In this document: positions 21,001 through 24,000 of the stretch, piece after piece
How the letters are laid out: each line of letters opens with the position of its first letter
Numbering within the stretch: the stretch's first letter is position 1
Assembly (NCBI RefSeq): GCF_057098645.1
Contig: NZ_CM169472.1
Direction: 5' to 3' (one strand)
Length of the DNA stretch: 64,000 nt
Position numbers: made by a program

Positions 21001-24000
21001 CGCGGCTACACGCGAAGCAGCAACCACCGAAAAAGGACTGCCGATCACCAGAGCAGTTATCAATAAGCTGAAGGACCAGAAGTTACTTGCCCCTGCTCCG
21101 GCACAACTCATCCGTCTGGCAATGGCGGGCCGGGCGGCTGCCCGTCGCCTTTCTTATCGGGAACTCATCAGGGATCTGAAACCTTCATCCATTAGCGCTC
21201 TCGAGCAGTTGCTTACCGAACGAGTCGGAGAAAAGAGCATTTTAGGCTGGATAGCTGAAGCGCCGGAAGGCGTGAAACTCAAGAATCTTAAGGGGTTAAT
21301 TGCCAGGCTGGAGGTATTACGAACAGCGGCAATCTCCGATGAGCAACGTAAACGGATTCATGTAAACCGTTACGGTATTATTGCCCGGGATTCTCGCGTT
21401 TTACATGCGCGTGAAATACAACGAATGGCATCCGAACGCTGTCATGCCACGCTGGTAGCCTTTGTTATTGAAAAGCAGGCAGCAATTACAGATCTGGCAA
21501 TTGATATGTTCTGCAAATTGATTGGCAGCACGAGGCGCAGAGCAGAGATAAGCCAGAAAGAGCGTCGTCTGAAAGCCGCTGAAGTACTTGAAGTCGTAGC
21601 TCAGGATCATATTAAGTTGGGACGGGCTCTCCTGGCAGCACGTGACGGTAATACTGATATTGAATCTGTAATAACAGCATCACTCGGCTGGGAAGGTTTG
21701 ATTGCCAGTATGGAGGCTGCAGCTTCGGTGGCATCTTCCCATCACTGTTCTGAACTGGATGAACTTATCGGACGACAAAAATCATTACGTAAGCTTGGAC
21801 GACTCATTTTCAGCGCTTTTTCTTTCAGAGCTTTTCGCCCGGATGATAGCGTTTTGTTGGCGATTGGGTATTTGCAGGCGTTCTATCATGGCCGAAAATT
21901 ACCCAAACAAATTCCGCTCGATTTTATGTCCCATAAATGGCGACGTCGTGTCATCCATGGAGAAAATACCGATCTGCAGGCGTGGGAAGTCGCCGTATTC
22001 GTTCATTTGCGGGAACGCCTGAAAACAGGTGACATATGGGTTGATGGTAGTCGGGCCTGGCGTAGTTTTGAGGACTACCTTCTTCCTCACCATGTTTTCG
22101 GGCAGATGCGGGCAGAATCCCGGCTGGGACTTGCCATTCCGGACAACTTTGCTGAATGGCGGGCTGAGCGAACCACCACACTCAACGCAAAACTGAAAGC
22201 GCTGGCAAAAGCTGCTTCGGAGAATGCCATACCCGATGCAGAACTTTCCAGCAGAGGGTTGTCTGTGTCTCCGATTCGCGAAGAAGAGAGCGACAAAATT
22301 AAGGCTCTCAGCCGTAAACTCTACATGCTGGTACCACGCATCAGAATTACCAGTTTGCTGGCAGAAGTTCATAGCTGGACCAGTTTTCTTGATTGTTTCA
22401 CCCATTATCGCACCGGGGAACAGGCGGAAGATGAAGCTGCACTTATGGCTGCGATCCTTGCCGATGCGACGAATGCGGGAGCAGAACGGATGGCGCAGAG
22501 TTCCCGGGGTGTCACCATTCACCAGATGATGGTAATGATGGATCGTCATTTACGCACTGAAACCTATGCGTCTGCCACATCAGTTCTGGTCGATGCGCAA
22601 CAGGAACATCCTTTTGCTGCTATATGGGGGGATGGGCATGTGTCATCCTCGGACGGGCAGTTTTTTCCTGCGGGTGGACGAGGAGAAGCCAGCCTCGAAT
22701 ATAACGCCAAATACGGCAAACGACCTGGCGCGTCGATTTATGGTTTTTTATCGAACCGTTTTGCATCCTTTTTTTCCAGAATGATTCAGGCCTCTGAAAG
22801 CGAGGCTCCCTACGTACTTGACGGCTTACTTCATAACGAAAGTTCTGTGGTAATTCATGAGCATGCCACCGATACAGCCGGTGCGACTGAAACAACATTT
22901 TCAATGTTTCACTCTTTTGGTTACAGACTCATACCCCGTATTCGCAACCTCGGCAGTCGCAGGTTGTACGTTATTTCCCCCTCAGAGGAATATAAACCAC
23001 TTGATGCCCTGATCGCCGGAAAGGCCAAAATGGAAGTAATAGAACAGCACTGGGATGAAGTTCTGCGGCTTAAGGCCTCGATCGGCGCTGGTCTGGTACC
23101 ACCATCGGTAATACTGAAAAAGCTGGCAGCATCTCCGAGACAAAACAGGCTCAATCTGGCCCTGCGTGAAATGGGACGTATTGAACGCTCAATTTTTATC
23201 TGTGACTGGTTGCTTGACACTCGGTTACGTCGCAGATCACACGCAATCCTCAACAAAGGCGAAAGCCGCCATGCACTTGCCCGCGCTATTTTTCTTCACC
23301 AACTGGGCGAATTCCGGAACAGGGCTGCCGAGACAATGGCTCACAGGGCATCGGGCCTCAACCTTGTTGTTAATGCAATAATTCTGTGGAACACGGTCTA
23401 TCTCAGTCGGGCTGTTGATTACATTCGCAGCCAGGGGATCATTATACCGGAAGAGCTCTTGTCCAGTGTATCACCACTACCATGGGGTCATATCTCGCTC
23501 ACTGGAGATTACCTGTGGAACGAAATTGACCATCCCCTTGAACGATACAGGCCACTTCGTACTAATCGCTTCAATCCAAAGAACTTCACTTTTCCTTAGC
23601 GTGTGTTATCGCAGAAATGCCCACGGAACCCCTTTAAGCGCAACCTATGGACAAACAGGGAACAAAGTTTCAGCCGGAACCGTCCAGTCAGTCATTGGTG
23701 TCACTTTTATCTATGAATAATTGTGATTTTGACCTTAGTCTATGCGCTCCATTCACGAAAATTGCGCGGATAATTATTTTGTGAAAGCTATTATCCTACA
23801 CCTGTAAGAAAATCCGCGCACAATTGAAGCCAGAGTCTTATTTTTTATATTAAAAAATATGTTAATTTAAACACTATGAGAGATGATGCTTACCTTATCG
23901 TATTTAATCTATTGTTTAACGATAATAGATTAAAAATAGAAAGAGAGTAGTCCCCTACTCTTATATATCCATGTTGGCGATAATCCCTTTGTATGTACTG

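What the first reader, a model, noticed from the sequence alone, without database searches (positions are those of the whole stretch)
23770..23850. Paired EvgA-box-like palindromes in matching ~50 bp promoter blocks upstream of ydeP and safA
ATCCTACA-CC-TGTAAGAA (23793..23810) and TGCCTACA-GC-TGTAAGAA (26452..26469) are 18 bp imperfect inverted repeats, each followed by a similar ~30 bp block ending in TATTT. This fits direct EvgA control of both promoters. The ydeP copy lies only about 160 bp from the right end of the Tn3-family element, so outward transcription from the transposon could in principle perturb it.
Basis: partly seen in the sequence, partly recalled or inferred. Interest (0 to 1): 0.35.

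Follow-up and report, generated by a model that had tools for sequence, protein, structure and literature searches.

The report
Known EvgA boxes at ydeP and safA
The two 18-bp palindromes are real and are the already described binding sites of the acid-response regulator EvgA in front of the E. coli genes ydeP and safA-ydeO; the only feature specific to this strain is a plasmid-type Tn3-family transposon 160 bp upstream of one of them.

Summary
ATCCTACACCTGTAAGAA (23793-23810) and TGCCTACAGCTGTAAGAA (26452-26469) are the only matches in 64 kb to TTCYTACA-NN-TGTARGAA. Each has one mismatch, and none is expected by chance at that stringency.

- **Location:** they lie upstream of ydeP (24054-26333) and safA-ydeO (26581-27614).
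- **Independent motif test:** the same palindrome sits upstream of the other EvgA-activated genes of K-12 (emrK/evgA, frc, yfdX twice, yegR). A matrix built only from those five sites ranks the two window sites first and second (24.1 and 21.1 bits; the next best is 6.3).
- **Shared block:** the two promoters stay similar, in register, for about 83 bp. The block contains elements at fixed distances that all six EvgA-box promoters share, including a -10-like hexamer 53-59 bp after the box.
- **Geometry:** I infer that the box is centred near -74.5.
- **Literature:** reviews state that EvgA binds both promoters directly.
- **Transposon:** the Tn3-family element spans 19845-23632. It has 38-bp inverted repeats and a 5-bp TTTAA duplication, and tnpR-tnpA read towards ydeP. 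It interrupts ydeQ and ends exactly 160 nt before the box. No terminator is predicted in between, so read-through is possible but untested.

Verdict: correct, ordinary and already known.

The parts
23793..23810 (+). EvgA box of the ydeP promoter: ATCCTACA-CC-TGTAAGAA, 1 mismatch to TTCYTACANNTGTARGAA
   Evidence: Top PWM hit in the window at 24.1 bits. In 8 strains only box position 2 and the two central bases vary.
23811..23875 (+). Core-promoter block of ydeP shared in register with safA. It includes the conserved elements CA (23819-23820), TC (23836-23837) and ATT (23840-23842).
   Evidence: 40/65 identical to 26470-26534. The same columns are conserved in six EvgA-box promoters. 23803-23853 is invariant in 8 strains.
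23863..23868 (+). Inferred -10 hexamer TAATTT of ydeP. The inferred transcription start is near 23876, which puts the box centre near -74.5.
   Evidence: A TAnnnT hexamer lies 53/54-58/59 nt after the box in all six EvgA-box promoters (read from the printed sequences). The ydeP leader used in PMC11210196 starts at -178 from the ATG, which is 23876. This is inferred, not a mapped start.
24054..26333 (+). ydeP (759 aa), acid-resistance putative oxidoreductase
   Evidence: NCBIfam NF007406, 1833.8 bits; RefSeq annotation of identical DNA
26347..26377 (+). 12-bp perfect hairpin (TTCTTCTGCTGT-CATCCGC-ACAGCAGAAGAA) just after the ydeP stop, followed by a weak T-tract
   Evidence: Read. Invariant in 7 strains. 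Not called a terminator by the scan.
26452..26469 (+). EvgA box of the safA-ydeO promoter: TGCCTACA-GC-TGTAAGAA, 1 mismatch
   Evidence: Second PWM hit at 21.1 bits. Identical in K-12. Positions 2-18 invariant in 7 strains; position 1 is C in one strain.
26470..26534 (+). Core-promoter block of safA-ydeO, with the inferred -10 TATATT at 26522-26527
26581..26778 (+). safA (65 aa), connector between EvgS/EvgA and PhoQ/PhoP
   Evidence: 61/65 identical to K-12 SafA; RefSeq annotation
26853..27614 (+). ydeO (253 aa), AraC-family acid-resistance regulator
   Evidence: NCBIfam NF007407, 605 bits
19845..23632 (+). 3,788-bp Tn3-family element. IRL is 19845-19882 and IRR is 23595-23632 (36/38 identical). 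tnpR is 20020-20652 and tnpA is 20633-23599, both reading towards ydeP. The flanking 5-bp duplications TTTAA are at 19840-19844 and 23633-23637.
   Evidence: Removing the element and one TTTAA in silico recreates, without a gap, the uninterrupted ydeQ of six other genomes.
23633..23720 (+). Displaced 3' end (88 nt) of ydeQ. Its 5' part is 19013-19844 and now reads into the transposon end.

Best explanation
The two palindromes are the operator sites (EvgA boxes) through which phosphorylated EvgA, a NarL/FixJ-family response regulator, activates two neighbouring sigma-70 promoters at mildly acidic pH. One promoter drives ydeP and the other drives the safA-ydeO operon. An EvgA dimer binds the 18-bp inverted repeat. 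That binding is published for the K-12 promoters and not tested here. The repeat lies at a fixed distance upstream of a weak -35 region (TTnnnn) and a TAnnnT -10 hexamer. This places the box centre near -74.5, so the bound dimer sits upstream of RNA polymerase and recruits or stabilises it. The geometry and the recruitment step are inferred. The two promoters are in-register relatives over about 83 bp and share their layout with the frc, yfdX, yegR and emrK promoters. The Tn3-family transposon landed in the 3' end of the upstream gene ydeQ and left the whole promoter intact.
For: The motif is unique in the window and not expected by chance. The same motif occurs in the intergenic regions upstream of emrK/evgA, frc, yfdX (twice) and yegR in K-12, and upstream of ydeP and safA in K-12. 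A PWM trained only on those other five sites ranks the window sites first and second (24.1 and 21.1 bits; third best 6.25; maximum in 30 shuffled windows 16.9). Across six EvgA-box promoters there are invariant columns at 9-10 (CA), 26-27 (TC) and 31 (T) after the box, and a TAnnnT hexamer at 53/54-58/59. Among 8 strains the ydeP half-site cores CCTACA and TGTAAGAA never vary, while the two central bases and outer position 2 do. Positions 2-18 of the safA box are invariant in 7 strains, and position 1 varies once. [quoted passage not shown] EvgA binds inverted repeats upstream of yfdX and yfdW (PMC3720670). [quoted passage not shown]
Against: No binding experiment exists for this strain. The ydeP box differs from K-12 at one outer position (ATCC versus AGCC), although this variant is the commoner one in my sample and is closer to the consensus. 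[quoted passage not shown] 2009), so the published footprint limits and mapped start sites are not verified. The consensus string itself comes from memory plus my own re-derivation. The promoter geometry is uncertain. The generic sigma-70 scan prefers TTGAAG-16-TATATT (23824-23851) for ydeP. That would put the box near -57, but this pair is absent at safA. evgAS is not in the window, so its presence in this genome is assumed.
Confidence: 0.9

Rival explanations
1. The palindromes are sites for a different regulator that acts on these promoters, for example another NarL/FixJ-family protein such as RcsB or GadE, or the reported repressors PhoP or YdeO. In that case the resemblance to an EvgA consensus is incidental.
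For: PhoP lowers safA expression and YdeO feeds back negatively on these promoters, so other proteins do act here.
Against: The same 18-bp motif recurs upstream of the set of operons reported as direct EvgA targets (emrK/evgA, frc, yfdX, yegR, ydeP, safA) and nowhere else in the 117 kb scanned, apart from two weak intragenic matches with 2-3 mismatches. From my own knowledge, the RcsB and GadE boxes have a different half-site arrangement. PhoP and YdeO are not known to control emrK, frc or yegR through such a site.
Confidence: 0.04
2. The ~83-bp resemblance of the two promoters is only a relic of a local duplication of one promoter. It would say nothing about function beyond the box.
For: The two blocks are 2,659 bp apart in the same orientation and are similar in register without gaps, as expected for paralogous DNA. 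frc and yfdX likewise resemble each other.
Against: The similarity stops abruptly upstream of the box (25% identity) and decays after about +83. The columns that are identical between ydeP and safA are also conserved in the unrelated yegR and emrK promoters at the same distances. The block is nearly free of polymorphism in 8 strains, while its flanks vary. Common origin and present constraint are not mutually exclusive.
Confidence: 0.15
3. In this strain, transcription that enters from the transposon (tnpR-tnpA read-through) contributes materially to ydeP expression or interferes with it. Control would then no longer be purely EvgA-dependent.
For: tnpR and tnpA are on the same strand as ydeP, and tnpA stops 194 nt before the box. 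No intrinsic terminator is predicted on the + strand between 23300 and the ydeP promoter. The 205-nt stretch 23596-23800 folds no better than shuffles, with z = 0.24.
Against: No outward promoter is predicted in the last 330 bp of the element. From my own knowledge, Tn3-family tnpA genes are usually expressed at very low levels. Before the insertion the same 160 nt already separated the co-directional ydeQ fimbrial operon from the ydeP promoter, so incoming transcription is not a new situation. The box, the -35 region, the -10 and the leader are untouched.
Confidence: 0.1

Closest known systems
[quoted passage not shown] 2009, cited through reviews)
   Same: It is the same 18-bp inverted repeat at orthologous positions. 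The safA site is identical to K-12, and the ydeP site is identical except for one outer base. The downstream genes and the distance to the core promoter are also the same.
   Different: Nothing of substance. The ydeP box has T instead of G at position 2, a common natural variant (6 of 8 sequences sampled). In this strain a transposon lies 160 nt upstream.
BvgA-activated promoters of Bordetella (BvgA is the homologue after which EvgA was named)
   Same: Both use a NarL/FixJ-family activator that recognises inverted TTTCCTA-like heptads (own knowledge). The EvgA half-site TTCYTACA contains the same TTCYTA core. The primary site lies well upstream of -35. Weak half-site-like elements occur 20 and 42 bp downstream of the primary left half-site, which recalls the roughly 22-bp spacing of secondary BvgA sites.
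   Different: The downstream elements score around 0 bits and are no more numerous than chance peaks in my scan. Cooperative multi-dimer binding is therefore not shown for EvgA here.
Small tnpR-tnpA Tn3-family transposons of enterobacterial plasmids
   Same: It has a Tn3 transposase (916.9 bits, NF033527), a serine recombinase, 38-bp GGGG-initiated terminal inverted repeats and a 5-bp target duplication. Copies 99.9-100% identical are found on many E. coli plasmids.
   Different: Here it is chromosomal and inside ydeQ. This junction is present in none of 5,426 complete E. coli genomes. It carries no passenger genes. I did not establish its registered name.

Membership tests
EvgA box (operator of the EvgA regulon) | 18-bp inverted repeat matching TTCYTACA-N2-TGTARGAA | tested here: met
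   One mismatch at each site, with no other match in 64 kb at up to 3 mismatches. The sites score 24.1 and 21.1 bits with a PWM built from five other K-12 sites, which themselves score 19.7-27.4.
EvgA box (operator of the EvgA regulon) | Lies in the non-coding region upstream of a gene whose transcription is EvgA-activated | tested here: met
   The boxes are 244 nt upstream of the ydeP ATG and 112 nt upstream of the safA ATG. EvgA dependence of these genes comes from the literature.
EvgA box (operator of the EvgA regulon) | Fixed position relative to the core promoter, shared with other regulon members | tested here: met
   A TAnnnT hexamer lies 53/54-58/59 nt after the box, and the conserved CA, TC and ATT columns are present in ydeP, safA, frc, yfdX, yegR and emrK. 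The absolute position (-74.5) rests on an indirect hint to the start site.
EvgA box (operator of the EvgA regulon) | Physical binding by phosphorylated EvgA (EMSA or DNase I footprint) and loss of activation when the box is mutated | not testable with these tools
   Reported for the K-12 promoters according to reviews. The primary papers are not held in the library.
Tn3-family transposon | Tn3-type DDE transposase of about 1,000 aa | tested here: met
   988 aa; NF033527, 916.9 bits, cut-off 500
Tn3-family transposon | Terminal inverted repeats of about 38 bp starting with GGGG, and a 5-bp target-site duplication | tested here: met
   The inverted repeats are 36/38 identical and TTTAA is duplicated. 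The empty site is reconstructed exactly.
Tn3-family transposon | Site-specific resolvase and res site | tested here: inconclusive
   The 210-aa ORF matches serine-recombinase models only below their cut-offs. RefSeq calls the identical gene 'recombinase family protein'. The res site was not mapped.
BvgA-like multi-dimer activator architecture | Secondary low-affinity sites at about 22-bp intervals between the primary site and -35 | tested here: inconclusive
   The mean half-site score peaks at +20 and +42 from the primary left half-site (z about 2.8 and 3.3). Absolute scores are about 0 bits or lower, and five peaks above 2 sd are roughly what about 200 tests give by chance.

The most novel reading that the evidence does not exclude
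The block shared downstream of the box may be more than a weak core promoter. All six EvgA-box promoters carry half-site-like elements in the same orientation two and four helical turns downstream of the primary left half-site: CA at +9/10, and TCYTA-like TC..ATT at +26-32 after the box. EvgA might therefore, like its homologue BvgA, nucleate on the high-affinity palindrome and fill weaker sites cooperatively down to the -35 region. That would make promoter output steeply dependent on the EvgA-P concentration.
Probability: 0.15. Interest if true: 0.3.

Novelty: already known. Interest (0 to 1): 0.1.

Why it matters
It matters little beyond annotation. It shows that the acid-resistance entry points of the EvgA cascade (ydeP and safA-ydeO) are intact in this strain, and that a sequence-only reader located their operators correctly. 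The only strain-specific point is that a plasmid-type Tn3-family transposon has destroyed the 3' end of the cryptic fimbrial gene ydeQ. It now points its transposase operon at the ydeP promoter. That would be of interest only if it were shown to change acid-induced expression.

Tried and rejected
- **Primary sources.** Masuda and Church 2002/2003, Eguchi 2007/2011 and Ma 2004 are not held. Full-text searches for the consensus string or for 'EvgA box' gave only noise or reviews without the sequence. The published consensus and footprints could therefore not be checked verbatim.
- **gadE.** It is also reported as an EvgA target, but no box-like match was found upstream of it at up to 3 mismatches. 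The only hit in that 12-kb locus lies inside mdtE and is probably chance.
- **Scan of 100,044 species genomes.** I searched for the exact block CCTACANNTGTAAGAAANTCCGC. It found only E. coli and two metagenome bins that carry E. coli-like contigs. No cross-species footprint was obtained.
- **Rfam.** Nothing credible was found in 19000-28000; the best E-value was 0.097.
- **Generic sigma-70 scan.** It proposed TTGAAG-16-TATATT for ydeP. I rejected this as the shared promoter because safA has no -10 at that position. I cannot exclude it as a ydeP-specific start.
- **First guess at the -10.** I dropped this in favour of the TAnnnT hexamer 53-59 nt after the box. That hexamer is present in all six promoters and fits the -178 leader.
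- **Half-site periodicity.** The test was not significant after allowing for multiple testing.
- Two scripts used transposon coordinates that were off by two bases, or flanks that were too long (and the first part). Both were corrected.

Full report
**Observation.** In each, 6 of the 8 arm positions are complementary around a 2-bp centre. A search of the whole 64-kb window on both strands with TTCYTACANNTGTARGAA returns only these two sites, even when 3 mismatches are allowed. At the observed stringency of 1 mismatch each, none of 100 dinucleotide-preserving shuffles gave any match.

**The matching block.** The 'matching blocks' are also real, and longer than described. In an ungapped register, identity is 15/18 in the box. 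It is 24/35 in the next 35 nt, the stretch that ends in TATTT, and 40/65 over the 65 nt after the box. It falls to 25% in the 60 nt upstream and 38% further downstream. No pair among 200,000 random 65-nt pairs from the window, and none of 100,000 shuffles, reached 40/65.

**Context.**
- The ORF 24054-26333 is YdeP (NCBIfam NF007406, 1833.8 bits, cut-off 1473).
- The ORF 26853-27614 is YdeO (NF007407, 605 bits).
- The 65-codon ORF 26581-26778 is 61/65 identical to K-12 SafA.
- DNA 100% identical to 23640-26600 is annotated ydeQ / ydeP / safA in RefSeq.
- The locus is nearly universal in E. coli: 5,313 of 5,426 complete genomes carry at least 80% of it.

**Is it the EvgA site?** I could not read the two primary papers, so I tested the consensus independently. 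In K-12 MG1655 the same palindrome occurs in these places:
- in the emrK-evgA intergenic region (TTCTTACGCCTGTAGGAT);
- upstream of frc (TTCTTACAACTGTAAGAA, a perfect match);
- twice upstream of yfdX;
- upstream of yegR;
- upstream of ydeP and safA.

These are the operons that the literature lists as direct EvgA targets (PMC8147483). PMC3720670 states that EvgA binds inverted repeats at the positions upstream of yfdX and yfdW. A symmetrised position weight matrix was built only from the five sites of emrK, frc, yfdX and yegR, so it is blind to ydeP and safA. It ranks the two window sites first and second at 24.1 and 21.1 bits. The third-best position in 64 kb scores 6.25, and the best score in 30 shuffled windows is 16.9.

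Reviews and research papers state that ydeP is directly regulated by EvgA (PMC8174306). They also state that EvgA binds the safA-ydeO promoter (PMC9496106). PMC4283999 notes that an EvgA binding site is found in all genes known to be directly regulated by EvgA.

**Promoter anatomy (inferred).** I aligned six EvgA-box promoters on the box: ydeP, safA, frc, yfdX, yegR and emrK. This shows invariant CA at positions 9-10 after the box, invariant TC at 26-27, and A/T/T at 30-32. It also shows a TAnnnT hexamer starting at position 53 (ydeP TAATTT, safA TATATT) or 54 (frc, yfdX, yegR, emrK).

The ydeP 5' leader used for CsrA binding in PMC11210196 begins at -178 from the start codon. That corresponds to 23876, which is 8 nt after this hexamer. 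On this basis the -10 is 23863-23868 and the -35 region is a weak TTnnnn around 23841. The EvgA box is then centred near -74.5. The same geometry holds for safA, with its -10 at 26522-26527.

The generic sigma-70 scan instead picks TTGAAG-16-TATATT (23824-23851) for ydeP. safA has no equivalent, so I treat it as secondary. No start site was mapped here.

**Variation.** In eight sequences of the ydeP promoter the only variable box positions are outer position 2 (T in six, G in K-12 and one other) and the two central bases (CC, CT, TC). The cores CCTACA and TGTAAGAA and the next 43 nt are invariant, while the flanks carry substitutions and a 5-bp indel. Positions 2-18 of the safA box and the following 19 nt are invariant in seven strains. 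Divergence within E. coli is low, so this is supportive rather than decisive.

**The transposon.** The element spans 19845-23632 (3,788 bp). Its features are:
- 38-bp terminal repeats, 36/38 identical and starting with GGGG;
- a serine-recombinase gene at 20020-20652;
- an overlapping Tn3-family transposase gene at 20633-23599 (916.9 bits against NF033527), with both genes on the + strand;
- a duplicated TTTAA at 19840-19844 and 23633-23637.

Deleting the element and one TTTAA restores, without a gap, the ydeQ sequence of six other genomes. This is therefore a clean transposition into ydeQ, 88 nt before its stop codon. The hybrid ORF 19013-19933 now ends inside the transposon.

Copies of the element that are 99.9-100% identical lie mostly on E. 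coli plasmids. No complete E. coli genome in the collection has this junction.

Between the tnpA stop and the ydeP promoter the scan finds no terminator and no outward promoter on the + strand. The RNA folds no better than shuffles, with z = 0.24. Read-through is therefore possible but unsupported. The co-directional ydeQ operon occupied the same position before the insertion.

**Comparison and novelty.** This is the published EvgA box at its published loci, and everything needed for EvgA control is intact. I file it as already known. One loose thread remains. Weak half-site-like elements lie 20 and 42 bp downstream of the primary left half-site, which recalls the multi-dimer promoters of the homologue BvgA. 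Their scores are near zero bits, and the number of such peaks is what chance would give.

**What failed.** Literature searches for the exact consensus gave nothing usable. No box was found upstream of gadE. A species-wide pattern scan found only E. coli-like DNA. Rfam found nothing.

Noticed in passing
window 19845-23632: A complete 3,788-bp Tn3-family element (tnpR-tnpA only, 38-bp inverted repeats, TTTAA duplication) is inserted in the fimbrial gene ydeQ. Near-identical copies are mostly plasmid-borne in E. coli. This chromosomal junction is absent from 5,426 complete genomes. Its registered name was not determined.
   Followed up: partly
window 23903-23934: The ydeP 5' leader contains a perfect 11-bp inverted repeat, TTTAATCTATT-N10-AATAGATTAAA. 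Two of eight strains carry a 5-bp insertion in the left arm. Its function is unknown; it could be an RNA hairpin or a protein site.
   Followed up: no
window 23944-23961: The ydeP leader contains a 7-bp GC-containing hairpin, AGAGTAG-TCCC-CTACTCT, that is invariant in 8 strains. The scan flags it as terminator-like only on the minus strand.
   Followed up: no
window 26347-26377: A perfect 12-bp stem-loop lies 14 nt after the ydeP stop codon and has only a weak T-tract. It may be a partial terminator. That would fit reports treating ydeP-safA-ydeO both as one unit and as separate promoters.
   Followed up: no
window 23860-23873 and 26519-26532: A second shared element, TGTTA(A/T)(T/A)TTAA(A/G)CA, lies at the same distance from both boxes and overlaps the inferred -10. 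TGTTAA/TGTTAT resembles a PhoP half-site (own knowledge), and PhoP is reported to repress safA. This was not tested.
   Followed up: no
L006 (JARKOR010000108.1), 2094-2116 and 4753-4775: A 13-kb contig binned as 'Candidatus Nanosynbacter' carries both the ydeP and safA promoter boxes, and its ydeP promoter is identical to K-12. This is almost certainly E. coli DNA mis-binned into the MAG. L007 (an uncultured-bacterium bin) is probably the same.
   Followed up: partly
window 15242-17893: There is an 883-aa ORF upstream of the ydeS/ydeR/ydeQ-like ORFs, where K-12 has only a truncated usher fragment (ydeT, 1,149 nt) and the yneL pseudogene. Apart from the transposon hit in ydeQ, the fimbrial operon appears more complete here than in K-12.
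   Followed up: no
window 19921-19938: The third-best PWM score in the window (6.25 bits, GTCCTGCAGTTGAAGAAA) lies inside the transposon, between IRL and tnpR. It is far below the real sites and is most likely chance.
   Followed up: no
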